IMG/VR virus record: IMGVR_UViG_3300028833_003520
Origin: a virus
Lineage: Duplodnaviria; Caudoviricetes
Strand: one strand, 5' to 3'
DNA length: 64,000 nucleotides
Shown here: piece after piece, positions 1-64,000 of the stretch
How the letters are laid out: the number at the start of each line of letters is the position of its first letter
Numbering within the stretch: the first letter of the stretch is position 1
Translations under genes and position numbers: made by a program
The notes under the pieces: model-generated
The model's input: the letters and a program-made list of their open reading frames with translations, nothing else
Database searches by the model: none
Told to the model about the DNA's origin: nothing

Positions 1-443
1 TTGACTTCAGGACTATATTCATCAATGTCCTGTTTATATGTTACTATGTATCGTTCCCATTTCTTAAAGCAAGTAACGGGACGACGATTGGGGTGGATTG
101 CAAACTGAAACATCAAGGTGGATTCTACTGATTTCATTTCTTCATCAGTGATGTGACCAATGTACTGTGCAATCCTACTTTTATCAATTGTGTATAACTG
201 CTCGCATAATGCGAGTGCTTTCTTATCTGCCGACATAATCGGGACTTGCGTGGGACGAACAGGTTTGTTCTTCCTTTCTGTTCGCAGATAAACGACGGTA
301 ACTGTCTGCGAATATTTGTTAGCAACGTCATTGGAGATAACAAGTGCAGGTCTATCAGACCAAATTTCAGCACCAGTTGGCTTAACATCTCCGTCTGTTA
401 TGTGGTAGATATCACCCTTTAAGATAGTACGATTACTTGCCAT
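1..443 (-). CDS. PemK/MazF-family endoribonuclease with C-terminal extension (runs off the left edge; not in ORF track)
   Basis: Manual translation: MASNRTILKGDIYHITDGDVKPTGAEIWSDRPALVISNDVANKYSQTVTVVYL...ALCEQLYTIDKSRIAQYIGHITDEEMKSVE. Carries the GDIY, RPALVISN and EQ..IDK.R MazF motifs. Confidence 0.85.
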   Translation of the reverse strand, partial: MASNRTILKGDIYHITDGDVKPTGAEIWSDRPALVISNDVANKYSQTVTVVYLRTERKNKPVRPTQVPIMSADKKALALCEQLYTIDKSRIAQYIGHITDEEMKSVESTLMFQFAIHPNRRPVTCFKKWERYIVTYKQDIDEYSPEV

Positions 444-496
444 AGTTAATCCATACAAATATCCTTTCTGATTTCTTCATACTTTTTAGTTGCAGA

Positions 497-554
497 ACCA
501 TACGAAGTAGGGGATAGTAGCAAATGCCACTACCCCTACGAATTCGTATTTGGT
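497..554 (-). terminator. Long imperfect hairpin after the helicase stop (terminator or processing stem)
   Basis: Minus strand GTAGGGGTAGTGGCA-TT-TGCTACTATCCCCTAC, with outer TACGAA/TTCGTA and ACCA/TGGT pairing. The G-U pair favours the minus strand. Confidence 0.6.
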
Positions 555-3497
555 TTAAGGAACGGGATTGTTGTTCGGATTAGGCTGTGGTGTTGGCTGA
601 CCGAGGTTATAGTGACCGTCTGCGTCGTAGAAATCGTCGTCGATTTCTTCGAAGGTCATCTTACCCTGTTTAATCATATGTGTCTTACCGACCTTGCGTG
701 CCTGTTCCAAGTCCTTATCGTGCAAAGCCTTGCAGATAAGGTTGTAATCGCTCTGAATACGAGGTGTCTTTACAGTGTTGTAAGACAGGATGCATTCGGA
801 GTTCTTCGCTCTGGTGAATGCAACGTAGAACATACGCTTATCGTCTTCAGGTACACGATTATCAGTCTTGTGGATAATGATAACATTATCGAACTCAAGC
901 CCCTTTACAGAGTGAATGGTTGAGAAAATGAAGTTCTTGGTTGAATAATCTTCCAACTTCTTCTTTTCATTGTTCGTAGAGAGGAGAGACTGACGAATAG
1001 CGTTAGACTCAATCTCGTAAGCAAGAAGGCTTTCCTTAACCTCTTCGAGCAACTTATCTTTGGTGATGATGCCAGCCTGATACTGAGCAACTAATCCATT
1101 GACCGTATCGAAGTATTCTTCTTTCCAAGAGGCAAGCATCTTGGCGAGGGCAACCTGATTTTTCTGTTCATCACCGTGCATAATGTATGAGCAACGGTTC
1201 TGAATAGCCTGTTCAACACAGTCAAGGAAGTTCTGTGAAGGTACGAACTTGATTTCGTGCCAATACTTCTTAATGAATGTGCTGAATACACAAGAATCCA
1301 TAATTCTTTCAGGAATTATGTTTGCAGTAGTTGCCTGAGGATAAAGTGTCTTGATGGCATCTTCAGCCTTTTGAACTTCTCTACGCTTATAAGCGATGAT
1401 TGCAATTTGCTCACCTCTTGCAAGGCAAGCGTCAATGAACGGCTTGCAAGCACCACCGAGGTCGGGACCGATGTGATTCAAGTAGTCTCCTACTTTGGAA
1501 AGTCCCTGATACTGGAGATTGACTTTGTTACGGAAAGTTCTTTCTGTAACTTTAGCAAGACTGTTAGCGTGCAACTGAATGTGAGCAAACTGGTTTGCTT
1601 CAATGTCTGCAAGCGTGGAGTTCGCAAAGTCCAAAATCTCCTGATTACTACGGTAGTTAATCTGCAACTGATAAGTTGTGAATACGTTACTTCCTTCAAG
1701 GGCGTTCAAAGCCTTTGAGTCACTGCCTCTGAACTCGTAGAGTGTCTGTGAACCGTCACCTACGATAAAGAGTGATTCCTTATGCTTATCAACATACTTG
1801 ATAAGGTAGATGAACTCAAAGATTGAGTTGTCCTGTACCTCGTCAACGATGAGGAACTTACTCTGAACTTCGGGCGGTTCAACGAACGAATCAATCTTCT
1901 GATAGCAGATGATGATTTCAAGTTCAAGAGTAGTTTGACCAAGTGTGTCAAGCATATCTATTACTTTGTCGTAATTCTCTTCGACGAAAGCGTTGAGTTT
2001 TACCCACGCTCCTCTGACGTTATAAGCGATGTCGTAGAGCAATTCACTGAATCTTTCAGCCAGAGGGTTCTTCTGGAAGTAGATTTCCAAACAGTTCCTT
2101 ACTGTTGAGATGGATGAAAGTTCGTGCTTGCACTTCTTTTCGCCTGTATTGGGGTCAATAATGCTGAAATTCTCTGAGTAGATGGTGTGAATCATCTTTG
2201 CGATGGTCATCGAGTGAACCTGAGAGTTCAATTCAGAGATATGGTCAGCCGCAGCGTTGGTGAATGATAAGACGGTAATGTCTTCAGGCTTAATACCGCA
2301 GTTAATCATATAAAGCATACGACCATTGATTGCTGTGCTCTTACCTGTGCCTGCACCTGCCTGTACGAGTACAAGGGGTTCAGTTGTAGAAATAGCAACC
2401 TGCTGTTCCTTTGACCAACTGTGAGCCATAGTAGGAAGCGGTATTGCACCATTCGGCTTGCCGAGAGTATTAAGGAGTGCCTTGTTCTTGTTAAGGCTTG
2501 CGAGCGTATCGGAAAGAAGCAAATTCAGATTTGCCTTACAGATACGGGACACAACATCAGGCTGTGTACTGAAATACTTAACAAGAATATCGTAGATGTT
2601 ACGAGACATAGTAAGAGGTATCTGGTATCTTTCCAGGTCTCTTACAAGACGAATGATGATTGTTTCATCGTCGAGAGTGGCTCCTGTAACTCGGTTAGTT
2701 CTACGGTTTGTCTTGGGCTGAGCAATCAACTGCTTGATAAAGTCCTCAACCGTTTCACTGATAGTAGTGTTCCACTCTGTGGCACGCTTTGCAACAACTC
2801 CGTAAACGCTTAATGATGAGAAATAGTCGTCAATAGCGTTCATATCAATGGTAGCCGTTGCACGATTGGGGTTACCGTTCTTAAGTATCTGAATGAGTGT
2901 GTTATAAGGGTCACAGGAGAACTGTACGTCGTATCTATTCTTTGAATAGTCATCCAGTGCAGTGAAATCCAATCCCTTTTCGCACACGAGATTCTTTGAG
3001 TCAGCAATCGTGAAGAGGTTAATCTGATAGCAAGGCTGGAACTTGGATTCCTTTGTGCCATCTTTATGCGTTGTCTCTTCAAGAATGATACTGTGAATGT
3101 CGAGGCTTATGTAGATGTCAGCATTGACATTGTTCTTCTTGCCAACAATTGTACCAATCTTCTGCATAGTTGCGTCGAGATTAGGGTCAGGAGCCGTGCG
3201 GTAAAGATAGTAATCCCAAAGGTTGCAAGTTGCGTGTATCGGGATTGTATTAAGAGGAAGGAAGTAAGTCTTGGTATCACCACTGACTGTTGTGTCCTTC
3301 TTACAATGCAGATTGTTTGCATTAGTAGGACGATTCATCATAAGAGGATTCATCGGGTTGTTTGCTTCGCAGAGCAAACCAACTTTCTTACCGTTTCCTG
3401 TAAGGATAGGACTGAAAAACTTCGGTGAATACTCGATAACAGTCGCTACGCTTTGCTGATTAACCAGATTGTCAAGGTTACTAAAATCTATTGGCAT
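555..3497 (-). CDS. UvrD/PcrA-like SF1 helicase with ~350 aa unknown N-terminal region
   Basis: Motifs QAGAGTGKST, VLSFTNAAA, IVDEVQD, VGDGSQTLYEFRG, NYRS, STIHSVKGLEFD, FYVAFTRAK. Confidence 0.92.
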   Translation of the reverse strand: MPIDFSNLDNLVNQQSVATVIEYSPKFFSPILTGNGKKVGLLCEANNPMNPLMMNRPTNANNLHCKKDTTVSGDTKTYFLPLNTIPIHATCNLWDYYLYRTAPDPNLDATMQKIGTIVGKKNNVNADIYISLDIHSIILEETTHKDGTKESKFQPCYQINLFTIADSKNLVCEKGLDFTALDDYSKNRYDVQFSCDPYNTLIQILKNGNPNRATATIDMNAIDDYFSSLSVYGVVAKRATEWNTTISETVEDFIKQLIAQPKTNRRTNRVTGATLDDETIIIRLVRDLERYQIPLTMSRNIYDILVKYFSTQPDVVSRICKANLNLLLSDTLASLNKNKALLNTLGKPNGAIPLPTMAHSWSKEQQVAISTTEPLVLVQAGAGTGKSTAINGRMLYMINCGIKPEDITVLSFTNAAADHISELNSQVHSMTIAKMIHTIYSENFSIIDPNTGEKKCKHELSSISTVRNCLEIYFQKNPLAERFSELLYDIAYNVRGAWVKLNAFVEENYDKVIDMLDTLGQTTLELEIIICYQKIDSFVEPPEVQSKFLIVDEVQDNSIFEFIYLIKYVDKHKESLFIVGDGSQTLYEFRGSDSKALNALEGSNVFTTYQLQINYRSNQEILDFANSTLADIEANQFAHIQLHANSLAKVTERTFRNKVNLQYQGLSKVGDYLNHIGPDLGGACKPFIDACLARGEQIAIIAYKRREVQKAEDAIKTLYPQATTANIIPERIMDSCVFSTFIKKYWHEIKFVPSQNFLDCVEQAIQNRCSYIMHGDEQKNQVALAKMLASWKEEYFDTVNGLVAQYQAGIITKDKLLEEVKESLLAYEIESNAIRQSLLSTNNEKKKLEDYSTKNFIFSTIHSVKGLEFDNVIIIHKTDNRVPEDDKRMFYVAFTRAKNSECILSYNTVKTPRIQSDYNLICKALHDKDLEQARKVGKTHMIKQGKMTFEEIDDDFYDADGHYNLGQPTPQPNPNNNPVP

Positions 3498-3523
3498 TAT
3501 AGTTATCCTTTCTGTTTGTATTT

Positions 3524-3553
3524 ATTCTCCCTGCTGGTTAGAACAGGGAGAAT
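3524..3553 (-). terminator. Intergenic hairpin
   Basis: ATTCTCCCTG-N10-CAGGGAGAAT, perfect 10-bp stem. Confidence 0.5.
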
Positions 3554-3587
3554 GCCTTATTTGATTTTAAGTACGAAAGAGTTGGAG

Positions 3588-5651
3588 TCAAGTGTCACTA
3601 TCTTTATCGTTTGGCTCACTCTCGATTGGTGATGCAGATTTTGTATCATCAATGAGATAAGTAGAGTCAGATTCAACGATAGCGTTTTCAGTGAGAATAC
3701 TGCCATTATAGTAATTCGTGGAAGCCATTCTTTTTGCTTTAAGCATAAAGTTTTCTATGTATTCACGAACTGCTTTGTTAGCAGGGCGAGCACCGAATGA
3801 AGGTACATAAGTACGCTTAACTATTTCATCTAAATCTTTGTCAGGTATCTTGTCAGGGAGTTTGAGTGTTCTCTTTTCTGCCTTGATACGAGTGACTTCT
3901 CTTTCGTATATATCTACAACGATTTCTCTGTAGATATCTTCGTTCAATTCATTCATCTGAATGATATGGTCGAATCTATTCAGAAGTTCGTTATCAAACC
4001 ATTTGGACAATTCTTTGACTTCAGACTTGTAAGAAGTCTTTGCCTCTTCTGTGTTGAAGCCAAGAGGATTCTTGACTTCTTTGTGAGCAGCATTTGAAGT
4101 AGCAATGATAATTGCTTTTGAAAAGTCAATGACTTGACCGTTACGATTGCTCTTAATGTAGCCTTCATCAAAGGCTTGCATAAAGAGTCTCTGAACAGAT
4201 TTATGTGCTTTCTCTAACTCGTCAAGCAGAATAACTGCGTAAGGGTTAGATGCGAGTGAGTCGAACGGTAATTCTGCATTGGAATCACTTCCAATGAAAC
4301 CCACGACAGAACCAACAATCTTGTTGATACTATCTTCTCCTGAGAACTCTGTCATATTGAGGGTAATGATAGGCGAACTTGTTAAGTCTTTGCCAAGAAC
4401 CTTGGCAATTTCTGTCTTACCAACGCCTGAAGGACCGACAAGTAAGAATGTCAGAGGTTTCTTGTGTGGGAATAATTCAAAATCATTTCGTTCGACCGCA
4501 TTGCAAATTTCTGCAAGTGCTTCGTCCTGACCTTTGATGTATGAAAGGTCTCTTTCGAGGGCTTCGATATCAAGTTCAGTTTTCGAACTGGTTCCTGTCA
4601 TCATTCTGATGGCAGTTTTCTTGATTTGTTCAACGGTCAGACGGAAGAACGGCATACTGTGGATAGCGTCGATTGTATCTTGAGCACGCTGTCTATCTTC
4701 TGCAGTTTTTGCAAGTAATTTTTGAGTGGTCATTTCCTGTTCGGCAGTCTTATAGAACAAGATGGTATCAGCAATGGCTCTGTCCATCAGAGTAATTGCG
4801 GTATCAGGTCTATGATTGCCAGCGAGATGATAATCATCGGCGATTGCTACGAGGGCTTCAAGAATATCGTCTTTGAACTGAACTTTCTTATTGTAATGGT
4901 TGTAATAAGAAGGCTTAATGTCTTTCAGAATTTCGATAGTCTGAGACTTCGATAATTCATCAACGATAACTCTTGTAAATCTTCTGTTGAAAGCAGGATT
5001 ATCCATAAAGTCCTTGCTTTCCTGAAGAGTAGTAGAGCCGATAACTTTAATTTCGCCTCGTGCCAATGCAGGTTTCAAAATTTCTGCAATGTCAGTGTAA
5101 TGCCTTGCAGAAAGCATTAAATGTATCTCATCAATAAACAAGATTGCTTTGTTTTTCGGGTCTGATGCAAACTCTATAACGGCTTGCATTTTCTGCTCAA
5201 CCATACCAACTAAGGTACTGCCTGATACTATGTTCTGTAGAGGCAGAGAGTAGATGGTATAGCCTTTAAGCGAATCAGGTATGAGAGGGTCGTCGTTTTC
5301 AAGTCTGCGAGCAATATCTTCTACAATACAAGTTTTACCGACACCTGCGGAACCGATATACAAAGCGTTTGGCTTGTTTTTACCGATAAGAATGGAGAGT
5401 GTTTGTTCAATGATTTCGTCTCTGAATTTAATCGGAGTGGCATCTTTGAACATATCGTTGTAATTGATAAGCAGAGAGTCGAGCGAATTTTCTTCGCCTG
5501 TACCGTTAGAGTTTCTACTCGGTGCAATCACAATTACTCTGGGCTGACCATTATCTTCGTTGTTACCGCCGTTGTTTGTTCCATTGTCTTCAGGCGGTGG
5601 AGTGTTTTTCGATTTATCCGATGTCGGATTTGTAAAATTGTTGTAAGCCAT
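3588..5651 (-). CDS. ClpA/ClpC-like two-ring AAA+ ATPase lacking N-terminal Clp repeats
   Basis: Walker A/B twice (GSAGVGKT / ILFIDEIH; GPSGVGKT / ILLDELEKAH), LKPALARGE, and an LGF loop. Confidence 0.9.
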   Translation of the reverse strand: MAYNNFTNPTSDKSKNTPPPEDNGTNNGGNNEDNGQPRVIVIAPSRNSNGTGEENSLDSLLINYNDMFKDATPIKFRDEIIEQTLSILIGKNKPNALYIGSAGVGKTCIVEDIARRLENDDPLIPDSLKGYTIYSLPLQNIVSGSTLVGMVEQKMQAVIEFASDPKNKAILFIDEIHLMLSARHYTDIAEILKPALARGEIKVIGSTTLQESKDFMDNPAFNRRFTRVIVDELSKSQTIEILKDIKPSYYNHYNKKVQFKDDILEALVAIADDYHLAGNHRPDTAITLMDRAIADTILFYKTAEQEMTTQKLLAKTAEDRQRAQDTIDAIHSMPFFRLTVEQIKKTAIRMMTGTSSKTELDIEALERDLSYIKGQDEALAEICNAVERNDFELFPHKKPLTFLLVGPSGVGKTEIAKVLGKDLTSSPIITLNMTEFSGEDSINKIVGSVVGFIGSDSNAELPFDSLASNPYAVILLDELEKAHKSVQRLFMQAFDEGYIKSNRNGQVIDFSKAIIIATSNAAHKEVKNPLGFNTEEAKTSYKSEVKELSKWFDNELLNRFDHIIQMNELNEDIYREIVVDIYEREVTRIKAEKRTLKLPDKIPDKDLDEIVKRTYVPSFGARPANKAVREYIENFMLKAKRMASTNYYNGSILTENAIVESDSTYLIDDTKSASPIESEPNDKDSDT

Positions 5652-5681
5652 TGCAGTTACTATCCTTTTTGTTGTTGAAAT

Positions 5682-5726
5682 TACGGTAGGTTAGGGTGGA
5701 AGGCAAGCCTTCCAACCCTTACCGTA
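5682..5726 (-). terminator. Intergenic hairpin
   Basis: TACGGTA..AGGGT-GGAAGGC-AA-GCCTTCC-A-ACCCT-TACCGTA. Confidence 0.55.
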
Positions 5727-5732
5727 TTTGAA

Positions 5733-7439
5733 TCAGAAGAGAAGTTTTCTTCTGATATCGGGGTCAACGTGTAACATACTTTCACAGAAGCGTTCTGCTG
5801 ACTCTTTTTCCTCTTCGAAGTCAATACAACCGTATGATTCGAGAGGCAAGTAGTAGAGATTTCGGGGATGTTTAACGAAACGGTTCTGTCTCCATACCCA
5901 TTCAAAGTCAGTCATAATGATAGAGAATTCTCTCTTACGCTTATCGCTCTGATTGATGTAGTGCCAAATCTGCTCGTAATCTGTACCGCCGTCAACCTTT
6001 TTGATGCGGTTAAATTCGGCAAAGATTTCGGATAAGGTCTTATCACGACACTTAATAAGTGAATCGGAAGACAAACTATCGGAGAAACTGTTGAAGTATA
6101 AGTTCATATTAAACTTTTTGGCTAATATGATACAAGACTTGATAGCAGTCTGATAGTTCTGTTCACTAACGGAACCCGAAGTATCGAGGTAGATATGAAT
6201 ATCGGGTTTATAAGTGACTCGTGTAGTTTTACCTTGCAGATTGAAGTCTTCAGGCTTACGTCTGTTAGGGCGTGAGAAAGTATGAACTGTGTTCTTAAAG
6301 ATGTTCTCTGATGACTGAACCGCTTGCATTTTATCAAGAATGCTCTTGATGATAACAAGCATTTCTTCAGGAGTCGGCTGTTTCGTTCTGAACTTCATAG
6401 GCTTGCAAACGCCAGATGCTTTGTTATTCTGAAGCATCATTTCGGCTGCAACTACGGCTCCCTTTGCCGCCTTACGCAAATTCTTTGCGGATGCGGTAAG
6501 TCTGTTCAGTTCTTTCTGACTGGTTGTTGTAATCTTCATACTAACAGCCTGAGAGATAATGTCCCATTCATCACGGATGGATGTTGCAGACGCTCTTGAA
6601 TGTTTCTCAACATTTACAAGAGTGATTGTTCTTGGAGTGTAAAGTTCTCTCAATGAAAACGGTAGGCAACCGAACTCTGCGTCGGAGACCTGTTTGGTGT
6701 AGTTCATCAATGCGGCAACGATGATTCGTGCAAATGAGAACTCTTCTACGTTTTCATCAGGTAAGTCACGAAGAGCAAAGGTTTCAGTCAGGTTATCTAA
6801 CTTAACATTCATAAAGTCTTTTATGATGTTACAGGTGGCATTTGATAAAACTCCACTTGCGTACATAGGCTGAACTTGAATGTCGAACCAAGCCTTAAAA
6901 TCTTCGAACGACCTCTCGTTTACAAAGTAAAATCCGAGAGTATCAGGTCTTGCATAATATGCAAGGGCAACGAAGAACTTTTCGTATGAACATACTCCAC
7001 CCAAGAACTGTCTGGCTGTAGGGATTACATCCTGAGCAGGTGTGTAGATGATTGTCTGTGAAGGAAAGGGGAGAGGCGGCACGCCTGGGTGAGTCGCATT
7101 CTCCTTGACTAACGCCTGTACGGAGAACAGTGAATCAACAGGCATCTGAGGTGCCTTATCATAATAAATCATTGTGCTTGTCAGCAATTCCTTAACAGCA
7201 AGTTCAGCAGCAGGGTTGTTGTTGATGTAAGCATCAACAACGAGTGCCGTTATATCATCTTCTGTGAGTTTCTTGCCATTCGCCTGAATAGAGGCTTTGA
7301 CACGCTTAGAATGAGGAGTGAATAACGGTTTTACTATTGTCTCCTTGATGAAGGCAATAGGGTCGAAGTCCCCTGACGGCTTTGATGTGTAAATTGGTGA
7401 AAGCACGACAGGCTTATTATTACTTACACTAATAGCCAT
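5733..7439 (-). CDS. von Willebrand factor A (vWA) domain protein
   Basis: C-terminal MIDAS: IYLDTSGS, GGTD, IIMTD. Adjacent to a MoxR-type ATPase. Confidence 0.85.
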   Translation of the reverse strand: MAISVSNNKPVVLSPIYTSKPSGDFDPIAFIKETIVKPLFTPHSKRVKASIQANGKKLTEDDITALVVDAYINNNPAAELAVKELLTSTMIYYDKAPQMPVDSLFSVQALVKENATHPGVPPLPFPSQTIIYTPAQDVIPTARQFLGGVCSYEKFFVALAYYARPDTLGFYFVNERSFEDFKAWFDIQVQPMYASGVLSNATCNIIKDFMNVKLDNLTETFALRDLPDENVEEFSFARIIVAALMNYTKQVSDAEFGCLPFSLRELYTPRTITLVNVEKHSRASATSIRDEWDIISQAVSMKITTTSQKELNRLTASAKNLRKAAKGAVVAAEMMLQNNKASGVCKPMKFRTKQPTPEEMLVIIKSILDKMQAVQSSENIFKNTVHTFSRPNRRKPEDFNLQGKTTRVTYKPDIHIYLDTSGSVSEQNYQTAIKSCIILAKKFNMNLYFNSFSDSLSSDSLIKCRDKTLSEIFAEFNRIKKVDGGTDYEQIWHYINQSDKRKREFSIIMTDFEWVWRQNRFVKHPRNLYYLPLESYGCIDFEEEKESAERFCESMLHVDPDIRRKLLF

Positions 7440-7486
7440 ATCTTTTTCCTTTCTGAAATATGGTATGTTACATTATGGACTAAATA

Positions 7487-8764: not shown

Positions 8765-8816
8765 AATAGTTTCTCCTTTAATTTTTATCGTTTGATGATG
8801 TAATGTGTTGTTACTC

Positions 8817-8836
8817 AAAAAAGCAGTGTTGCTTTT
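8817..8836 (-). terminator. Small intrinsic terminator-like hairpin upstream of the AAA gene
   Basis: Minus strand AAAAGCA-ACAC-TGCTTTTTT. Confidence 0.4.
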
Positions 8837-8988
8837 AAGAATCATAAATAGTACATAAATCTATAAACTTATAGATTCGCTTTTGGGCTTACACTCCTTT
8901 ATGTGTAAGAACCAAAGGCAGTTCGAAAGTTATGGGCAATAACTTGCGATTAGGGATTTTGAAGGTATGTGTTCAATATTAAAAATCG

Positions 8989-55574: not shown

Positions 55575-55585
55575 AGATGCTCTCC

Positions 55586-55999: not shown

Positions 56000-56014
56000 T
56001 GTTGTTATTCTCCT

Positions 56015-56446: not shown

Positions 56447-56458
56447 AATTTTTCTCCT

Positions 56459-56929: not shown

Positions 56930-56933
56930 AGTT

Positions 56934-57662
56934 TTATCCTCTTGGTGAAAAGATATTGATGAGGTCTTCACGGGCAAGATTGACATTTTCAACATATTTG
57001 TCGAATTCGGGGTCAACACGCTTTGCGTGTATTGTGAAGTCTTCAAATTCGAAATATGTCATCTTTCTTCCTGTTACAGCAGATGCGATTTTTACAAGCA
57101 TTTTTCTCTGCTTGTCTGAAAGTGTCCTTAAAAGCCCGTAGCCTGTTGTTACCCCATTACTAATAGCGTCGATATATGCGTCAACAATCTTTGTGGCATA
57201 TTCTTTCTTAGTAATGGTCTTCCTTGTAAGAAGAATGCAGTAACGGTCATCATCAGGGATTTCGACTTTGAATTCAGAGCCGACTTGTTTTTCTAAAGCC
57301 TTTTTAACTCGCTTGAGTTTTTCAGGTGTGTTAATACGCCAGGCGATAAAGATGTGTTCTTTATCTGAAGATGTGTACATCTCAGGATAGCAAGCGAGAG
57401 TATCTGTTGGCTTCTTTGAACCGCCACAGTTGTAGGCGTTTTTGAATAAGATGTATTCAAAGTCATTGTTTTCAGCAATTTTGCCGTTACGCCAGAAGCG
57501 TTTAGGCATCTGACGAGGACCATAGCAGCAGGTGCACTGATTTTTACCATAAGTGTAATGAGCGAAATCAATATCGCACTCTTTCATCAATGATTTGAGG
57601 TCAAGGTCACCGTATGTGAGTTTTGCAGGCTTGTAGTAGTATGTACGATAACGGGTAGCCAT
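56934..57662 (-). CDS. Hypothetical basic protein (CTCCYG)
   Basis: SD GGAGGAG. Confidence 0.75.
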   Translation of the reverse strand: MATRYRTYYYKPAKLTYGDLDLKSLMKECDIDFAHYTYGKNQCTCCYGPRQMPKRFWRNGKIAENNDFEYILFKNAYNCGGSKKPTDTLACYPEMYTSSDKEHIFIAWRINTPEKLKRVKKALEKQVGSEFKVEIPDDDRYCILLTRKTITKKEYATKIVDAYIDAISNGVTTGYGLLRTLSDKQRKMLVKIASAVTGRKMTYFEFEDFTIHAKRVDPEFDKYVENVNLAREDLINIFSPRG

Positions 57663-57664
57663 TG

Positions 57665-57955
57665 TTATGCTCCTCCCTTTTGACTTATTTTCTGTTTTCT
57701 CAATTCATCTGTTGAAGGAACTTTGATAATGGAATAGCAGACGGTTCCACAATGGTTAGTCTGAATGCAAGCAGAATTATTGGAAATAAATTCTCCTTCA
57801 CTATCGTCCAGGTCTGCCTTTATTGTTTCCATATCATCACAACCAACGGTTTTCTTGATGTCTTCATACATCGCATTGGTAGCCTCTTCCTGTGTAAGAT
57901 AAAAGGCGGTTTCAATTTCCATATTTTCTCTTGCAACAACTGTAAGACTATACAT
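57665..57955 (-). CDS. Hypothetical protein
   Basis: AAAGGAGAATAACTATG start. Confidence 0.75.
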   Translation of the reverse strand: MYSLTVVARENMEIETAFYLTQEEATNAMYEDIKKTVGCDDMETIKADLDDSEGEFISNNSACIQTNHCGTVCYSIIKVPSTDELRKQKISQKGGA

Positions 57956-57967
57956 AGTTATTCTCCT

Positions 57968-58270
57968 TTACTTGTCTATAGCATTGATAAGACGCTTGAT
58001 GGCTCTTTTATCATTATCTGTAAGGTTAGTGATAGGGAATGTTGCGTCAGACGCATTGTCTGCGTCAACAATGGTTGCTTTAGCAGAGATTGTCTTATCT
58101 ACAGGGTTGTATGTGACTTCAAGCACTGCACTATCATCACCTTCTACATCGAGGTCAAAAGCGTCGAAATTCGTGATAGTGAAAATGTATTCAAGACCAT
58201 TTTCGTTATCGTCAGAAAGGAATCCGTTAGTAAGGTTCTTGGATGTAAAGATTGTTCGTGTCTTGGACAT
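57968..58270 (-). CDS. Hypothetical protein
   Basis: SD AAAGGAG. Confidence 0.75.
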   Translation of the reverse strand: MSKTRTIFTSKNLTNGFLSDDNENGLEYIFTITNFDAFDLDVEGDDSAVLEVTYNPVDKTISAKATIVDADNASDATFPITNLTDNDKRAIKRLINAIDK

Positions 58271-58296
58271 AGTAAGTTTTCTCCTTTTAGATTAAA

Positions 58297-58614
58297 TTAT
58301 GGTATAAAGCCGTCTTTACGATACTTCTCAAAATTAGCAAGGTTTTCGTTAAGAAGTTCTTGTGCTTTCTTAAGGGCTTCTTCGTTAGAAGATGCTTTGA
58401 TTACACCAAGTGATGGCTTTTCTTTGGATGTATGTCCAAGAAATGTGCCGTAAACAAGATACTGATTTGTGCTATTCTTGAATCCCTTTGTCTTGACGAT
58501 ACGGATTATCGCAGGAACGAGGGCTGTTGCCTCAATGCTTGCAAGGAATTTACCGTCACCTTCAAACTGAAGGTCGGTAGGTTTTTCAGGTGTTGGGAGT
58601 CGTGATTTCGACAT
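58297..58614 (-). CDS. Hypothetical protein
   Basis: SD AAGGAG. Confidence 0.75.
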   Translation of the reverse strand: MSKSRLPTPEKPTDLQFEGDGKFLASIEATALVPAIIRIVKTKGFKNSTNQYLVYGTFLGHTSKEKPSLGVIKASSNEEALKKAQELLNENLANFEKYRKDGFIP

Positions 58615-58616
58615 AG

Positions 58617-58910
58617 TTATTTCTCCTTGTGTAAATGATAAATGTACAATTCTTTCTTGAGAGAATTGAAGTGTGCAACTTTCGGTGTCCCTGCCATACT
58701 AAAGGATTGGGGTCCTGACCACCAAACCTTGTTGATTTCAGTTGAAAACATTGTTTTCTGTACGTCAACGTGGTGATACCGAATGTTGTGTTGAGCGATG
58801 TATTCATCGGCTTCTTCGAGTGTTTCACAGGAGATTACTTCAGCAGTATCTCTTGTGCCGTCTTCGTGAGGCGGTTCGATATTGATTATTCGAGATTTGA
58901 TGGATTTCAT
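58617..58910 (-). CDS. Hypothetical protein
   Basis: SD AGGAG. Confidence 0.7.
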   Translation of the reverse strand: MKSIKSRIINIEPPHEDGTRDTAEVISCETLEEADEYIAQHNIRYHHVDVQKTMFSTEINKVWWSGPQSFSMAGTPKVAHFNSLKKELYIYHLHKEK

Positions 58911-58922
58911 AGGTTACTCCTG

Positions 58923-59642
58923 TTAGACATACTTATGAGCAAATTCTTCAGCATCTTCTTCAGGGTTAGATAAGAATGAATTGAAAGTTTCCTCGGAAAC
59001 ATAAGGGTCATTCTGTTCAAGATGCCTGAATTCGTGAGCAATTGTGGCGTGAAGGGCTATGAAAATTTCTCTGTCATATTCGTCATCCAGAATTTCTTCG
59101 GCTTTGAGCATTTTATCGACACAATCTTTGACGTGTCCAACATTGATAACGACAATGTTATCGGCTTCCCAAGTGATTCCGAGACAGTTTTTGTAATCGG
59201 GTAAGTCGTGTAACTCAAGAAGTTCATAGAAATCTAAATGCCAGTCTTCCAACTGAATATGACTTAATTCTTCATTGTCTTTGTCATAGCCGTCCTCGTC
59301 TGTGTATGAGCAGAATACAATGCGATTAAGTGTTTGATAGCACTCTTTTGGTAAAACAGAAAATATCCAATTAGCCATATTATCCAAGTAAGGTTTAACG
59401 GTCTCGTTATTAGCCGCACTTGTGAGTATGATTATTTTCTGTTTGAGCCATTCCTTAGTCATTGTTTCAGCATCGGTGTAACAAATGACGTGTTCAAAAG
59501 GTGCATCCGTATAATCGTATATAGTGATGGTTTTATCTGTTTCTTCACTAATGAACACACTTTCATTATTGAAAGCCTCATCACAGTCAGGTTCGGCATC
59601 AGAATGAATAGCCTCAACAATGCGTTTGAAATCATTGCTCAT
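58923..59642 (-). CDS. Zincin-like metallopeptidase (HExxH), acidic
   Basis: TIAHEFRHLEQ with downstream EEDAEEFA. Confidence 0.65.
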   Translation of the reverse strand: MSNDFKRIVEAIHSDAEPDCDEAFNNESVFISEETDKTITIYDYTDAPFEHVICYTDAETMTKEWLKQKIIILTSAANNETVKPYLDNMANWIFSVLPKECYQTLNRIVFCSYTDEDGYDKDNEELSHIQLEDWHLDFYELLELHDLPDYKNCLGITWEADNIVVINVGHVKDCVDKMLKAEEILDDEYDREIFIALHATIAHEFRHLEQNDPYVSEETFNSFLSNPEEDAEEFAHKYV

Positions 59643-59670
59643 TGTAAGGTCTCCTTTATTAGTGTTAATG

Positions 59671-59705
59671 AAAAAAAGGGTGCAACTATTTATAGTTACA
59701 CCCTT
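59671..59705 (-). terminator. Intrinsic terminator
   Basis: AAGGGTGTAACTA-TAAA-TAGTTGCACCCTT-TTTTT on the minus strand. Confidence 0.8.
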
Positions 59706-59731
59706 CGACTCTTTTGGAGTTGTATTTTGTC

Positions 59732-60130
59732 TTATAAAAGAAGTTTCTCATATTCATTGATAATCTCTTTCATAGAAGAGATTGAAAGGCTCAGTACGTA
59801 GTCACCAAAGTGCATATCGACGTGAGGTTTATCTGAAGCAACGATATCTACTTGTCCTATGCCGTCTATAACGACAGAGGTGTGAGATGCATTAGACGGG
59901 GTTTTAGGCAAACTTGTGTCTATACCAAGTCTATCGAGCAGTTCAATGAATGTGAGTCTTTTTGGGACAAGTGTATAAGGTGTACCGTCTAAACAGACAT
60001 CAAAGCAAATGTCGTCGTTTGCAGGTAAATCGGGATTATCACTGTTCCAAATCTTTTCGATGTCACTGGCTTTCTCGAAAGTCCAGTTGATTGTTACGTC
60101 ATCAACATTGATAGAAGAAAAAGTAATCAT
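59732..60130 (-). CDS. Hypothetical protein
   Basis: SD AAAGGAG. Confidence 0.75.
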   Translation of the reverse strand: MITFSSINVDDVTINWTFEKASDIEKIWNSDNPDLPANDDICFDVCLDGTPYTLVPKRLTFIELLDRLGIDTSLPKTPSNASHTSVVIDGIGQVDIVASDKPHVDMHFGDYVLSLSISSMKEIINEYEKLLL

Positions 60131-60169
60131 AAGTAGAAATTCTCCTTTTACCGATATTTATTCGGAAGA

Positions 60170-61024
60170 TTACTCTTCGTCAAATTCTTCAGAGCCGTCA
60201 AAATCTTTGAGTTTGACAGGCATAATGTCATCAATGGTGATGGGAGCCTCTAATACCTTGGTGCCAAGACAATGAGGACAATGACCACATCTTGTGGGTT
60301 CTACAAGTCCTGTCTTGACCTGAATGACACGCTGAATATTCTGTCTGACATATTCAAGTGCAGCATCGAGGTGAGGCTGGGTGACTTCAATGATGTTGTA
60401 ATCGGTAATCGTTTCTTTGGTTCCACAAGCAATGTAGAACGGGAGACGATAACCTGTGTTGATTTCAACTATTTTCTGATAGATAGCACCCTGAATGTCG
60501 TAACCCCAAGCGTGAATGAAGTCAACTTTCTGATGGATATCTTCAATCCAAATAGGCTTCATATCCTTCATTATCTTAAGGTCAACAATCTTATCACCTG
60601 CGTGATAAGAGTCTATTTTGATTTTCCAATCAACGCCAAAGAGGGATGCGGTCATAATGACCTGCTTATCTCCTGACATATACTGCTTGAAGAGAGGGTC
60701 TCTTTCAAGACGGTCTATGATAGCCTGAGCATTCTTAAAGTCAGCCTTTAACTGTCCTTTAGTTGCTCCTGTTGACGAATATACGGAAGGATTGTTCTTG
60801 AGGAATTCATCAAGAGTACCTTCGAAGTAAGAGTCAATGAATGAGCCAACAAGTAAGGCAGTGGTAGTCGGCTTGGGAATGACACCAGTGTACTTTAAGT
60901 ACGCCGTTTCTTCGCAAGAACGCTTGACGGTATTGCCTGCGAAATCCTTGAACTGTGAAACGGACATATAGTCACGGTCTGCTTCAGGCGAGAAATAGTT
61001 CTCATTGGTAAGTGCAATAGGCAT
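60170..61024 (-). CDS. PD-(D/E)XK exonuclease-like protein (DUF3799/RecE-like)
   Basis: LTNENYFS..YMSVSQFKDF, KIKID, VDLK, GYDIQGAIYQ, C-terminal Cys. Start at 61024. Confidence 0.8.
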   Translation of the reverse strand: MPIALTNENYFSPEADRDYMSVSQFKDFAGNTVKRSCEETAYLKYTGVIPKPTTTALLVGSFIDSYFEGTLDEFLKNNPSVYSSTGATKGQLKADFKNAQAIIDRLERDPLFKQYMSGDKQVIMTASLFGVDWKIKIDSYHAGDKIVDLKIMKDMKPIWIEDIHQKVDFIHAWGYDIQGAIYQKIVEINTGYRLPFYIACGTKETITDYNIIEVTQPHLDAALEYVRQNIQRVIQVKTGLVEPTRCGHCPHCLGTKVLEAPITIDDIMPVKLKDFDGSEEFDEE

Positions 61025-61046
61025 TGGTATTCTCCTTTTCTTTATG

Positions 61047-61502
61047 TTATGTAATCTTGCAAAGCGATTGAATGATGTTTTTCGCTTCTTTAACGGTGGA
61101 AATGTTGCCATCAATGAAGGTAACGTCGTTATCTAACATCAATTCGAGGAATTTGACTTTGATTTTTGGAGAAACATCAAGCCCGTAAAAATCGTTTACG
61201 GGAATTGAAGTAAAATCTCTCACAGATTTGTAGTTATCTATGATGTTAGAAACGGATTGCATTCGCATAAAACCTGAGCCTATCAGACTCTCGAATGATA
61301 GGTCGTCAGAATAAGGAGACTGAGTAAACTCAGCCTCCGAATTCTTAAAAACTGTTTTTGCGAATTGTGTAGGAATGTTGAATTCCTTTAATATGTCTTC
61401 AAGACGAGTATTAGGGTTCTTCTTTGCTTTTCTTAAAGCGTAAACGAGTTGCAGAAGTTCATTGATAACATAAGTGTAGAACTTATTATCGTAGTTTTGC
61501 AT
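61047..61502 (-). CDS. Hypothetical protein
   Basis: SD AAAGGAG. Confidence 0.75.
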   Translation of the reverse strand: MQNYDNKFYTYVINELLQLVYALRKAKKNPNTRLEDILKEFNIPTQFAKTVFKNSEAEFTQSPYSDDLSFESLIGSGFMRMQSVSNIIDNYKSVRDFTSIPVNDFYGLDVSPKIKVKFLELMLDNDVTFIDGNISTVKEAKNIIQSLCKIT

Positions 61503-61525
61503 AGATTACTCCTTTGTAGTGGATG

Positions 61526-62557
61526 TTACTCAGGGTGACAGACGCTACAAGGTTTATAACCGTCCTCCTGAAGACCTTCGAATGAGCGAGTTGTATATGT
61601 GATATTGAGAGGGTCAATATCATTGATGCAGGAGCAGCCAGGAGTGTGAATGGTCTGAGTGCTCTCGTCGATTACATAGTTATAAGCAATTGATGTCTCT
61701 GACGGTTCAGATGATGATGTGTCTGTTTCAGATGTGCTTGTGGACTGTGTGTCATCAAGCGTAGGACCATCATAGTCAGGAGAAATTGCGTTGTCGCCTG
61801 TTTCATAATCAATGACAACCCAAGGCTGAACATTGTAGGCGAAAATACAGAACTGTACACCTTTTCCGTTATCTTCTACGGAGTAGGCTTCCATAAGGAC
61901 ACCTTCTGCGACAAGGTTTTCACCCTTGAAGATAGGTGTAACACGATACATTACGTGGTTGTTAGGGTTTGCGATTAAATAATCGTGCACTTCATCTTCA
62001 TAAGGGAGCATACCCTCAATGTTGAGATAACGAGTGCCAGTAATAAGATTCTTTTCATTAGCATTTTCGCCTGAAAGCATATAGGCGATTAAGTGGCAAC
62101 GATTATAGAGATAGTTGCCGTCGATTAAACCAGGATATTGATTGTAATTGGCTGTATGCCATCCTGAAGGCTTTACATTACCAATAGAGCCACGCTCTTC
62201 GGTAGGCATTAAGTCTGTGCCAATGCAAGCGAATGCAACGCCGCATCTATTCAAATTATCGAGTTCTGAGTAGGACTCAAATGAAGTTGTTGTAAGTTCA
62301 TCGGCTGTGAAATAGGGAACATTATCGTTTACCTCAACAGACGGTGAACCAGAATAATCGGATGCCTGTAAAGGCGGAAGTCCTCTTGAGGATTCAACTG
62401 CAGAACTGCTTGAAGGCTCCGATTCATTGTGACTTTCTGTTGTTTCTAAAGGCTTGTCAGGAACGGAAACAGAAGTAGGCTTGGTATTCTTACAACCTGC
62501 AAGGAGCATCACGGTCGTAAGAACGAGTGCGAGTGTTTTGAAAAGTTTGCGATTCAT
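61526..62557 (-). CDS. Lipoprotein DNA/RNA non-specific endonuclease (EndA-like) with Ada-type Zn domain
   Basis: Lipobox LAGC, YSELD..NRCG, YNRCHLI, NLITGTRYLN, C-terminal H..GC...GYKPCSVC. Confidence 0.9.
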   Translation of the reverse strand: MNRKLFKTLALVLTTVMLLAGCKNTKPTSVSVPDKPLETTESHNESEPSSSSAVESSRGLPPLQASDYSGSPSVEVNDNVPYFTADELTTTSFESYSELDNLNRCGVAFACIGTDLMPTEERGSIGNVKPSGWHTANYNQYPGLIDGNYLYNRCHLIAYMLSGENANEKNLITGTRYLNIEGMLPYEDEVHDYLIANPNNHVMYRVTPIFKGENLVAEGVLMEAYSVEDNGKGVQFCIFAYNVQPWVVIDYETGDNAISPDYDGPTLDDTQSTSTSETDTSSSEPSETSIAYNYVIDESTQTIHTPGCSCINDIDPLNITYTTRSFEGLQEDGYKPCSVCHPE

Positions 62558-62601
62558 AGTGTTTGTTGTCCTTTCGTGTTTGAATTGCGTGGTTGTATGT
62601 G

Positions 62602-62634
62602 AGTGAGACAGTATTCATCCTATACTGCCTCACT
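62602..62634 (-). terminator. Intergenic hairpin
   Basis: AGTGAGGCAGTA...TACTGTCTCACT on the minus strand (one G-U pair). Confidence 0.5.
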
Positions 62635-62645
62635 TATTATACATA

Positions 62646-63353
62646 TTACCAATCTACCGCAATGTCAATCCCGTAAGGATAGTCGCTGACGAAGGAACCC
62701 GTGTCAACGACTATTGCTGTTCCTAATGAAGTTTCGAGAATAGTGCCTTTAGGTCTTATCGAGAAGTTAGCGGCAACCATTATATAATCGCCTAACATCT
62801 TGCATCCATCGTCCCTTATCCAATAAGGGTATTCTTCTTCAGAGTAACCTAAATCTCTCATATATTGAACGATTAAGTTCATATTGAGATTATAGAAGGT
62901 TTCTCTGCCTGATGGACCATCGAATACTCCTAAATATTCGGTAAGATGTTCTTCCATAGGACCATTGATGACGGGAGATTCCGTCAATGTTGCTGCAGAC
63001 ATATCTTCTGAAGTATCTTCAGAGGATGATTCTGCGGTAGATTCTTTTGGTTCTGTTTCAACCGTTGTGGTTTCGGCAGGAACCATATTGGTTGTTTGAG
63101 CATACGACGGCACTATAGCCATATTTACAGTAGTAAGTCTTGTAAAAGACGGCGTGGGTTGTGCTGTTCGTATCTCGGTTTGGGAGGTTTTGGTTGAAGT
63201 GCTAATGACGATATCGTCATCAGCCTTAGTTCCAATCCAGCCTAACGCATAAGAGCCTTGTAGTATTATAGCCGTCATCAGAAAGATGTTAATCGGATAG
63301 AATACATAGGCTCCGAGAGGCGATAGCCTGTACCTTCGTTTGATTTTCTTCAT
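62646..63353 (-). CDS. Membrane-anchored protein with 3D-like (cell-wall lytic) C-terminal domain
   Basis: TM helix, S/T/E linker, VAAN...GT..ET..G.AIVVDTG...IDIAVDW. Confidence 0.55.
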   Translation of the reverse strand: MKKIKRRYRLSPLGAYVFYPINIFLMTAIILQGSYALGWIGTKADDDIVISTSTKTSQTEIRTAQPTPSFTRLTTVNMAIVPSYAQTTNMVPAETTTVETEPKESTAESSSEDTSEDMSAATLTESPVINGPMEEHLTEYLGVFDGPSGRETFYNLNMNLIVQYMRDLGYSEEEYPYWIRDDGCKMLGDYIMVAANFSIRPKGTILETSLGTAIVVDTGSFVSDYPYGIDIAVDW

Positions 63354-63655
63354 TCATTTACCTCTTTATCGTCTATTAGATGATGTTTGATGAAAATCTC
63401 ATCAATTTCTTCTCTCGTATGTGGTACATATACGTGGACTCCCTGCTGTTCCATTCGACGATGGATGACTCGTTGTTTGGGAGAAGGTTGCCCTGTTTTA
63501 GATTTAGTCTCAATAAAGATGGTCTGACCTCTCGCTATGAGTATTCTGTCAGGAACGCCTGTTTCTGAATCAGAATTGAACTTATAGCAGAGATAGCCGA
63601 GTTTCTTTGCCTTTTCGACAAGATAGCCTTCAACATAATGTTCGGCTTTACCCAT
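63350..63655 (-). CDS. VRR-NUC domain nuclease
   Basis: E..VE..L, GVPDRI, FIETK, G.PSPKQ. Start at 63655 after AGGAGG. Confidence 0.88.
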   Translation of the reverse strand: MGKAEHYVEGYLVEKAKKLGYLCYKFNSDSETGVPDRILIARGQTIFIETKSKTGQPSPKQRVIHRRMEQQGVHVYVPHTREEIDEIFIKHHLIDDKEVNE

Positions 63656-63751
63656 TTTGGTTAGTCCCTCCTTTATATTGAATAAACCTGTAACCTTTTC
63701 AGAAGTTCTGTGCAAGAACTTTGTAAAGGGCAGGTGCAATATTATCGGCAA

Positions 63752-64000
63752 TCAAGGCTCTGCCTTGTTATAGATAATGATATGGAAATTGACAGAAGCA
63801 CCTGAATCTTCCGAGAAGGCTTGGATTTCAAAACCCGAAGGGATTTTTAAGCCATTAGCCGTTGTCTCGGAATCAGACGAATAGAGAATATCAATCTGAT
63901 AGGTTACTTGTATATGCGACTGCTCTACGAATGCCGCCAACTCGTCAAGGATGGGTTTAAGAGCATTTTCGTAGGTATAGACTGTGGCTATACTGTAATT
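63752..64000 (-). CDS. 3' end of a divergent endonuclease-fold protein (continues past right edge)
   Basis: Frame is open to the edge. NYSIATVYTYENALKPILDE...VTYQI...GFEIQAFSEDSGASVNFHIIIYN aligns with the C-half of 61526..62557. Confidence 0.65.
   Translation of the reverse strand, partial: NYSIATVYTYENALKPILDELAAFVEQSHIQVTYQIDILYSSDSETTANGLKIPSGFEIQAFSEDSGASVNFHIIIYNKAEP

What the first reader, a model, noticed from the sequence alone, without database searches (positions are those of the whole stretch)
1..64000. Eight of the sixteen 4-bp palindromes appear to be purged from the element
Seen: in every stretch I read closely (parts of 0-5 kb, 9-9.7 kb, 16.1-16.9 kb, 26-27 kb, 46-46.7 kb, 61.5-62 kb) I found no GATC, AGCT, GGCC, CCGG, GCGC, CGCG, CATG or CTAG. 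TGCA, GTAC, ACGT, TCGA and the AT-only palindromes are common, and 5-bp sites (CCWGG, GCNGC, GGNCC) do occur. At this composition each missing word should appear roughly once to a few times per kb. Known: restriction-site avoidance is typical of phages and conjugative elements. Inference: loss of eight words, even in short accessory genes, implies long-term passage through hosts with many Type II R-M systems and fingerprints the host range. It would also explain why starts here never have a C immediately before ATG. I did not count exhaustively.
Basis: partly seen in the sequence, partly recalled or inferred. Interest (0 to 1): 0.72.

Follow-up and report, generated by a model that had tools for sequence, protein, structure and literature searches.

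The report
Giant rumen plasmid purged of restriction sites
A roughly 243-kb plasmid-like element from cattle rumen has removed every copy of eight four-letter DNA palindromes and about sixteen longer enzyme-type sites, an extreme form of the known trick of escaping bacterial DNA-cutting enzymes, and unexpected in so large an element.

Summary
GATC, AGCT, GGCC, CCGG, GCGC, CGCG, CATG and CTAG each occur 0 times in the 64-kb window. They also occur 0 times in 23.8 kb of flanking DNA of the same element from independent assemblies. Synonymous-codon shuffling predicts 42-183 copies each, 781 in all.

The purge works through absolute context-dependent codon choice, and it reaches the proteins: Trp-Pro, which forces GGCC, is absent. 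About sixteen longer motifs are also gone, including GTMKAC, TTTAAA, ATTAAT, ATCGAT, GTATCC and GRCGYC. In all, 44 of the 64 six-bp palindromes are absent.

Eighty loci of related 100-250-kb elements each purge a different word set, from none to nine. Only a deeply diverged bovine sister shares this vocabulary.

The pattern is therefore neither compositional nor an artefact. It is best explained by long-term selection from many Type II restriction systems. The host is unknown, so no enzyme could be matched to a word.

The phenomenon itself is known. The degree, and its presence on a giant plasmid-like element, are unusual: published surveys find that large plasmids rely on methylases and do not avoid 4-bp palindromes.

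This scan has seen comparable purges in phages and giant viruses. First readers also flagged the pattern in two upstream windows of this element.

The parts
1..64000 (.). DNA with zero copies of eight 4-bp palindromes (GATC, AGCT, GGCC, CCGG, GCGC, CGCG, CATG, CTAG). It also lacks 12 further 6-bp palindromes and several degenerate or asymmetric motifs: GTMKAC, GTATCC, GRCGYC, CYCGRG, CCCGC, CAGNNNCTG, GACNNNGTC, GACNNNNGTC, CCGCTC, CCRYGG and GRGCYC.
   Evidence: The same zero count holds in 23.8 kb of flanks from other assemblies.
555..63940 (-). Run of 85 minus-strand ORFs (12 more lie on the plus strand) in which the purge is carried out by context-dependent synonymous codons. Asp before C is GAC 149/149, His before G is CAC 88/88, Ser AGY before T is AGT 50/50, Ile after G is never ATC, and Ala after A is never GCT. 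Trp-Pro occurs 0 times against 8.7 expected.
5733..7439 (-). 568-aa conserved backbone protein (some relatives carry PF09967). I used it as the marker to collect and tree about 100 related elements.
28470..29483 (-). 337-aa protein with a GmrSD_N (DUF262) domain, the N-terminal domain of modification-dependent Type IV restriction enzymes. It is relevant to the idea that methylation-dependent restriction operates in this niche.
   Evidence: E 6e-18, above Pfam's cut-off.

Best explanation
The window is part of a roughly 243-kb plasmid-like element of rumen anaerobes. Its whole sequence has been kept free, by purifying selection, of the recognition sequences of many Type II restriction enzymes met in its hosts. 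These comprise eight 4-bp palindromes and about sixteen 5-10-bp motifs.

Shown:
- The words are absent against every null.
- Avoidance is achieved by switching to a synonymous codon whenever the neighbouring base would complete a banned word, and by avoiding Trp-Pro.
- 9.4% of all possible point substitutions, and 11% of synonymous ones, would create a banned 4-mer, so the state must be actively maintained.
- Relatives purge other word sets, and a deeply diverged bovine sister purges the same set.

Inferred:
- The selective agents are restriction endonucleases acting on the element when it becomes double-stranded in a new cell.
- Elimination rather than self-methylation is used, possibly because recipients also carry methylation-dependent nucleases that would punish methylated sites.
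For: - Zero copies against 42-183 expected per word under synonymous shuffling, and the same in 23.8 kb of flanks from independent assemblies.
- Absolute codon-context switching.
- Trp-Pro is 0 vs 8.7 here. Across the family it is 3 vs 71 in loci that purge GGCC, and 170 vs 201 in loci that keep it.
- Further motifs with typical Type II architecture, against an order-3 Markov null on 88 kb: GTMKAC 0/58, TTTAAA 0/34, ATTAAT 0/33, ATCGAT 0/30, GTATCC 1/34, GRCGYC 1/34, CYCGRG 0/21, CCCGC 0/17, CAGN3CTG 0/16.
- In 80 related loci the purge sets run from 0 to 9 words. State changes on the marker tree are frequent: GATC at least 9, GGCC at least 12, CCGG at least 10. The AGCT and CATG purges are unique to the window plus L005.
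- Relatives of the same GC (L019, L029) purge nothing.
- The bovine sister L005 (60% marker identity) shares the eight words and nearly all longer motifs. L006, L019, G001 and G003 keep most of the longer motifs at about the expected level (exceptions: ATTAAT, AGTACT and CYCGRG are also absent in L006, CYCGRG and GACNNNGTC in G003).
- Purges are element-wide in complete relatives. G003 (150 kb) has 12 residual sites against 736 expected. G001 (251 kb) has CTAG 0 vs 905.
- Methylase genes are few in the family.
- Avoidance of mainly orthodox Type II sites is the established pattern in phages (PMC6286503).
Against: - No host is identified, so no cognate enzyme, REBASE match or host-chromosome control exists.
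- The enzyme names I attach to motifs come from memory.
- Only 88 of about 243 kb of the element could be read. First readers of upstream windows report, by eye, a few residual sites, which I could not check.
- Published surveys find that large plasmids do not avoid 4-bp palindromes and rely on methylases (PMC10359461), so this would be an exception to the trend.
- About 60 small orphan proteins in the window have unknown function and could include nucleases.
Confidence: 0.85

Rival explanations
1. The driver is avoidance of methylation rather than of cutting. Host methylases would mark GATC, GGCC and similar words on the element, and the next recipients carrying methylation-dependent nucleases (Type IV, DpnI-like) would then cleave it. 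Removing the words protects against both classes of enzyme. This is a variant of the main explanation and does not exclude it.
For: The element itself encodes a GmrSD_N-domain protein, so modification-dependent restriction exists in this niche. The family carries few methylases although large plasmids usually do (PMC10359461). Elimination is the only strategy that is safe against both enzyme classes (inference).
Against: There is no direct evidence. Classical Type II pressure alone is sufficient. The element does carry one N6/N4 methylase just outside the window.
Confidence: 0.12
2. Self-avoidance. The element encodes its own nucleases of these specificities, for example to attack resident or competing DNA, and must therefore lack their sites.
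For: The window holds a non-specific-nuclease-family protein (PF13930), a GmrSD_N protein and about 60 orphans. Other findings of this scan tied purges in giant viruses to virus-borne enzymes.
Against: More than 20 separate specificities would be needed. No Type II nuclease or matching methylase family was detected in 90 proteins scanned.
Confidence: 0.04
3. A compositional or mutational bias shared with the host genome, not element-specific selection.
For: CTAG is commonly rare in bacteria, and it is low in most relatives. The host chromosome could not be examined.
Against: Dinucleotide O/E values are unremarkable at 0.75-1.22. The zeros persist under Markov and codon-shuffle nulls. Relatives of equal GC keep the words. 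The effect is absolute and depends on codon context, and it changes protein sequence.
Confidence: 0.02
4. A sequencing, assembly or data-handling artefact.
For: None, beyond the oddity of exact zeros.
Against: JGI contigs from three samples and a Logan contig from a fourth give 100% identical DNA over the parts they share with the window and with each other, and gene look-ups find its proteins, letter for letter, on contigs of further ENA and Logan assemblies. ORFs are intact, and the replacements are synonymous rather than random errors. The only GATC is an adapter remnant.
Confidence: 0.01

Closest known systems
Restriction-site avoidance in virulent phages (Rusinov et al. 2018, PMC6286503; Styriak et al. 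2000, lack of GATC in rumen Streptococcus bovis phage F4, cited in PMC7113391; from memory, Staphylococcus phage K lacking GATC)
   Same: Short palindromic Type II-type words are eliminated by synonymous changes, word by word and lineage by lineage. About one-tenth of viral genomes show complete or near-complete loss of some sites.
   Different: Here the replicon is a roughly 243-kb plasmid-like element, not a phage: no terminase or HK97 capsid in complete relatives, and relatives on actinobacterial megaplasmids. The number of words removed at once is very large: 8 of 16 four-bp palindromes, 44 of 64 six-bp palindromes, and degenerate or gapped motifs as well.
R-M target avoidance in plasmids (Shaw, Rocha and MacLean 2023, PMC10359461; Wilkins et al. 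1996 on RP4/IncP-1, as cited there)
   Same: A plasmid adapts to restriction barriers through its sequence composition, and avoidance is linked to host range.
   Different: That survey finds avoidance mainly of 6-bp palindromes and mainly in small plasmids, with no excess avoidance of 4-bp palindromes. It finds that large plasmids rely on methylases, and argues that short targets are hard for large plasmids to avoid. This element does the opposite at about 243 kb.
Engineered 'stealth' DNA such as SyngenicDNA (Johnston et al. 2019, from memory)
   Same: All host R-M targets are removed by synonymous recoding so that the DNA escapes restriction.
   Different: This case is natural, evolved, genome-scale, and aimed at a community of hosts rather than one strain.
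Other purged genomes found by this scan (phages of 34 and 55 kb, and several giant viruses)
   Same: Many short words are lost together, and some amino-acid pairs are banned.
   Different: Those are viruses. In some giant viruses the purge tracks virus-borne enzymes. I did not test these notes.

Membership tests
Restriction-site (R-M target) avoidance | Word counts lie far below composition-, Markov- and codon-aware expectation. | tested here: met
   0 observed against 42-183 per word under synonymous shuffling. The Markov nulls agree.
Restriction-site (R-M target) avoidance | The effect is word-specific, not general palindrome or GC avoidance. The words have Type II architecture: 4-6-bp palindromes, degenerate and gapped palindromes, and short asymmetric sites. 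| tested here: met
   Eight palindromes are absent and eight are kept. GTMKAC, GRCGYC, CYCGRG, CAGN3CTG, GACN3-4GTC, GTATCC and CCCGC are also absent.
Restriction-site (R-M target) avoidance | The avoided set differs between related elements, following host or niche rather than ancestry or GC. | tested here: met
   80 related loci purge 0-9 words, with many state changes on the tree, and the bovine sister shares the set.
Restriction-site (R-M target) avoidance | Cognate restriction enzymes are present in the hosts. | not testable with these tools
   The host is unknown, no whole genome is held, and the one genome-collection scan gave only a chance hit.
Restriction-site (R-M target) avoidance | Avoidance is stronger in the element than in the host chromosome. 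| not testable with these tools
   No host DNA is available. The only indirect control is that relatives of equal GC keep the words.
Conjugative megaplasmid | Plasmid rather than phage: no virion or packaging genes, and relatives on cultured plasmids. | tested here: met
   The marker protein hits Streptomyces, Gordonia and Rhodococcus megaplasmids and no isolated phage. Three complete relatives have no Terminase_6N or HK97 capsid. Only two virion families were searched, and the relatives are catalogued as viral in IMG/VR.
Conjugative megaplasmid | Transfer machinery: coupling protein, VirB4-type ATPase and relaxase. | tested here: inconclusive
   VirD4-type (PF02534) matches occur in 2 of 3 complete relatives. 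AAA_10 occurs in none. Relaxase was not tested. For this element itself the coupling protein is reported only by earlier notes.

The most novel reading that the evidence does not exclude
The banned vocabulary (8 four-bp words plus about 16 longer motifs), shared by two deeply diverged rumen megaplasmids and by none of their gut or other relatives, is a negative image of the combined restriction repertoire of one rumen host range. Wholesale site elimination, rather than the methylase carriage typical of large plasmids, is forced because recipients combine Type II enzymes with methylation-dependent ones. If so, host range and community restriction landscapes could be read from mobile-element sequence alone, and these elements would be natural 'stealth' vectors for hard-to-transform anaerobes.
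Probability: 0.3. Interest if true: 0.75.

Novelty: new member of a known kind. Interest (0 to 1): 0.6.

Why it matters
Restriction-site avoidance is textbook for small phages and small plasmids. Current surveys conclude that large plasmids cannot, or do not, purge short targets and instead carry methylases. This element is about 243 kb. Its synonymous-shuffle expectation would be on the order of 3,000 sites for the eight 4-mers alone (extrapolated from 781 in 59 kb of coding DNA), yet it has none in the 88 kb I could read.

That state has costs. One in ten possible mutations would create a banned word, and at least one dipeptide is banned.

It shows that selection by restriction enzymes in the rumen is strong and persistent enough to shape a giant replicon base by base. 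It also offers a family of about 100 related elements with different purge sets as a natural experiment for linking avoided words to host restriction repertoires. Finally, it points to naturally restriction-proof backbones for genetic work on intractable gut and rumen anaerobes.

Tried and rejected
- Megablast of 20 kb against isolated phages gave no match.
- The search for related loci with the SNF2 helicase in IMG/VR found nothing.
- The single genome-contig scan, made with the ClpB-like protein, gave only a chance hit to a Chloroflexota MAG (L004). Host inference by that route was lost.
- The genome search on the window's own genome failed because none is held.
- Walking along the element with the look-up of encoding contigs added only 23.8 kb. 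The 243-kb ENA contig and several Logan contigs have no retrievable DNA, and the JGI contigs break at the same places.
- The specificity of the N6/N4 methylase just upstream of the window could not be assigned. Its nearest solved structures are N4-cytosine methylases at E 2e-9, and it has no orthologue near the marker in any relative. The idea that it protects ACGT or another retained word therefore stays untested.
- Low GP, PG, DQ and QD dipeptides were considered as further protein-level costs. I rejected them as evidence because GP is equally low, and PG, DQ and QD are somewhat low, in low-GC relatives that purge nothing.
- Met-Trp at 0 vs 5 is not significant after multiple testing.
- AT-only palindromes 'purged' in relatives of 60-70% GC were not counted as restriction avoidance, because the mononucleotide expectation is unreliable there.
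- The Type II review (PMC4081073) does not spell out the degenerate motifs, so the enzyme names remain from memory.
- A single rule covering the eight lost words but not the eight kept ones was sought (inner dinucleotide, outer pair, purine-pyrimidine pattern, CpG content). None fits. In relatives the words are lost in many different combinations, so they behave as independent targets.
Full report
**1. The observation**

An exhaustive count of the 64,000-base window (40.1% GC) finds no GATC, AGCT, GGCC, CCGG, GCGC, CGCG, CATG or CTAG.
- The mononucleotide expectation is 227 for each mixed word and 102 for each GC-only word.
- First-order and maximal-order Markov models give 48-297.
- No other 4-mer, palindromic or not, falls below an O/E of 0.36, and dinucleotide O/E values are ordinary at 0.75-1.22.

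I called 97 ORFs covering 92% of the window, 85 of them on the minus strand. I then shuffled synonymous codons within each gene 200 times.
- The eight words then appear 42-183 times each, 781 in total.
- No shuffle gave fewer than 25 copies of any word.
- The 5 kb of non-coding DNA is also free of them.

- TCGA (316) and TGCA (312) are normal. GTAC (142) is mildly low.
- ACGT (81) is 2-3-fold depleted, so it is not 'common'.
- GGWCC, CCWGG and CTNAG occur but are depleted.

**2. Not an artefact**

Look-ups of two window proteins show the same DNA in several independent assemblies.
- The longest is a 243,445-bp ENA contig. There are also JGI contigs from three samples and Logan assemblies of several runs.
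- The retrievable contigs are 100% identical to the window where they overlap.
- They add 23.8 kb beyond both window ends, also with zero sites, giving 87.8 kb in all.
- The single GATC in any of them lies in the last bases of a Logan contig, inside the Illumina adapter sequence AGATCGGAAGAGC.

**3. How the purge is written**

Codon choice depends absolutely on the neighbouring base.

| Context | Codon used | Usage elsewhere |
|---|---|---|
| Asp followed by C | GAC, 149/149 | GAT 59% |
| His followed by G | CAC, 88/88 | CAT 61% |
| Ser AGY followed by T | AGT, 50/50 | - |
| Ile after G | never ATC | ATC 45% |
| Ala after A | never GCT | - |
| Gly before C | never GGC | - |
| Pro before G | never CCG | - |
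| Arg before G | never CGC | - |

- Only one dipeptide forces a banned word whatever the codons: Trp-Pro, TGG-CCN. It occurs 0 times against 8.7 expected.
- At positions where 18 GGCC-keeping relatives have Trp-Pro, the window's orthologues have Trp-Tyr or Trp-Arg.
- Over all related loci, Trp-Pro is 3 vs 71 expected where GGCC is purged and 170 vs 201 where it is kept.
- Of all possible point substitutions in the window, 9.4% would create a banned 4-mer. Among synonymous substitutions the figure is 11%. The state therefore has to be maintained continuously.

**4. More than eight words**

I used an order-3 Markov null, which already knows every 4-mer frequency, on the 88-kb union.

| Motif | Observed / expected |
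|---|---|
| GTMKAC | 0/58 |
| GTATCC | 1/34 |
| TTTAAA | 0/34 |
| GRCGYC | 1/34 |
| ATTAAT | 0/33 |
| ATCGAT | 0/30 |
| CYCGRG | 0/21 |
| CCCGC | 0/17 |
| CAGNNNCTG | 0/16 |
| GTATAC | 0/16 |
| GACNNNGTC | 0/14 |
| GACNNNNGTC | 0/14 |
| AGTACT | 0/14 |
| AACGTT | 0/13 |
| CCGCTC | 0/13 |
| CCRYGG | 0/13 |
| GRGCYC | 0/10 |

- These have the architecture of Type II and IIS recognition sites. From memory of REBASE prototypes they correspond to AccI, BciVI, DraI, AcyI, AseI, ClaI, AvaI, FauI, AlwNI, Tth111I, PshAI, ScaI, AclI, BsrBI, DsaI and BanII. I could not verify these names here.
- In the window, 44 of the 64 six-bp palindromes have no copy: 32 that contain a banned core, plus 12 others.

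**5. What the element is**

- The window encodes a UvrD-type helicase, a ClpB-like ATPase, a MoxR-type AAA protein, a 568-aa conserved protein, an SNF2 helicase, NrdD, an MgsA/RarA-like ATPase, a Xer-type recombinase, dUTPase, UDG, a PDDEXK protein, a non-specific-nuclease-family protein, a GmrSD_N protein and about 60 small orphans.
- Just outside the window lie a D5-type primase, a PemK toxin, ThyX and one N6/N4 methylase.
- The 568-aa protein has hundreds of relatives on metagenomic contigs of 100-250 kb. It has relatives on Streptomyces, Gordonia and Rhodococcus megaplasmids and none in isolated phages.
- Three complete relatives from IMG/VR, two with direct and one with inverted terminal repeats, have no Terminase_6N or HK97 capsid. 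Two of the three have a VirD4-type coupling protein. None has AAA_10.
- Earlier agents of this scan describe this same element as a 243-kb rumen conjugative-type megaplasmid. My checks are compatible with a plasmid-like element, but they do not prove conjugation for it.

**6. Comparative test**

I aligned 30 marker proteins and fetched 96 related loci, plus four more by protein identity. Eighty of these related loci were long enough, at 10 kb or more, to score.
- Purge sets (O/E of 0.1 or less) range from none to nine words.
- Relatives of the same GC as the window (L019 and L029, both 39%) purge nothing.
- Many human-gut relatives purge GATC with GGCC, or GATC with CCGG and GGCC.
- Another clade purges GGCC, CCGG, GCGC and CGCG.
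- A clade at 52-54% GC purges nothing.
- On a FastTree of 81 markers, the window pairs with L005 (record labelled bovine metagenome, 60% identity), and that pair joins L006 (found in Hadza gut and other samples). Both branches have SH-like support of 100.
- The minimum number of state changes is 9 for GATC, 12 for GGCC, 10 for CCGG, 15 for CTAG, 7 for CGCG and 6 for GCGC. The AGCT and CATG purges arose once, in the window-plus-L005 pair.
- L005 has the same eight words at zero and has also lost ACGT (1 vs 78).
- L005 shares nearly all the longer banned motifs: GTMKAC 0/16, ATCGAT 0/10, GTATCC 0/8, ATTAAT 0/7, TTTAAA 0/6, GRCGYC 0/6.
- L006, L019, G001 and G003 keep most of those motifs at about the expected level and show their own purges. 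L006 also lacks ATTAAT (0/7), AGTACT (0/3) and CYCGRG (0/4). G003 purges GCNGC (11/98), CYCGRG (0/22) and GACNNNGTC (2/21). G001 purges CCWGG (10/89).
- In complete relatives the purge is element-wide. G003 (150 kb) has 1 GGCC, 2 CCGG, 6 GCGC and 3 CGCG against 184 expected each. G001 (251 kb) has 0 CTAG against 905.

**7. Interpretation**

- The words behave as independent targets that are gained and lost along lineages. They are removed at a cost to codon choice and even to protein sequence.
- The full vocabulary is shared only by two deeply diverged elements from the same habitat.
- This is the signature of selection by sequence-specific nucleases met in the hosts, that is, restriction-site avoidance. 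In phages, avoidance mainly concerns orthodox Type II sites (PMC6286503), and there is a rumen precedent for GATC (Styriak et al. 2000, cited in PMC7113391).
- What is unusual is the replicon. A survey of plasmids found no excess avoidance of 4-bp palindromes. It found stronger avoidance in small plasmids and methylase carriage in large ones, and it argued that short targets are hard for large plasmids to avoid (PMC10359461).
- This family carries few methylases.
- A possible reason, by inference only, is that recipients also hold methylation-dependent nucleases, so that only site loss is safe. The element's own GmrSD_N gene shows that such enzymes circulate in this niche.

**8. Limits**

- The host is unknown and no host DNA could be examined.
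- Only 36% of the element was readable.
- First readers of the two upstream windows report the same purge by eye, with a few residual sites. One is a GGCC said to be forced by Trp-Pro. I could not check this.
- The positions they quote are not sites in my window, which is as expected if their coordinates refer to their own windows.

**9. Verdict**

- The phenomenon is a known kind. This is an extreme new instance on an unexpected type of replicon, within a large family that offers a natural experiment on restriction pressure.

Noticed in passing
window:28470-29483 (-): A 337-aa protein with a GmrSD_N (DUF262) domain, the N-terminal domain of Type IV modification-dependent restriction enzymes. 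No C-terminal nuclease domain was detected.
   Followed up: partly
L003:14330-15253 (about 0.8-1.8 kb upstream of window position 1): A single N6/N4-type DNA methylase of unknown specificity. Its nearest solved structures are N4-cytosine methylases. It has no orthologue near the marker gene in any of the roughly 100 related loci.
   Followed up: partly
L002:6203-6219: The Logan contig ends in the Illumina adapter sequence AGATCGGAAGAGC. This is the only GATC in any assembly of the element, and it shows untrimmed adapter in that public assembly.
   Followed up: yes
window, all ORFs: The dipeptides Asp-Gln (13 vs 43.5) and Gln-Asp (17 vs 43.5) are strongly under-represented. Relatives show a weaker trend (O/E about 0.7-0.86). 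No banned word explains Gln-Asp.
   Followed up: partly
window, stop codons: TAG ends only 4 of 97 ORFs (TAA 69, TGA 24) and is never preceded by C, in line with the loss of CTAG.
   Followed up: partly
window: 6-bp palindromes with GTAC, TCGA or ACGT cores: For these retained cores, the A-, C- and G-flanked hexamers are all absent: AGTACT, CGTACG, GGTACC, ATCGAT, CTCGAG, GTCGAC, AACGTT, CACGTG and GACGTC. The T-flanked ones persist: TGTACA 14, TTCGAA 36, and TACGTA only 2. Some individual expectations are small, so the regularity may be chance.
   Followed up: partly
G003 (L109-L116) and G001 (L117-L129): Complete relatives have their own element-wide purges. G003 lacks GGCC, CCGG, GCGC and CGCG, and is also depleted in GCNGC, CYCGRG and GACNNNGTC. 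G001 has 0 CTAG in 251 kb and is depleted in GATC, GGCC and CCWGG.
   Followed up: yes
L035, L089, L051, L042, L048 (relatives of 58-70% GC): AT-only palindromes (AATT, ATAT, TATA, TTAA) are almost absent in several of these high-GC relatives (all four in L035 and L089, one or two of them in the others). I did not test whether this is restriction avoidance or a composition effect.
   Followed up: no
Every one of them obeys the word ban, so this accessory-looking part is not recently imported unpurged DNA.
   Followed up: partly
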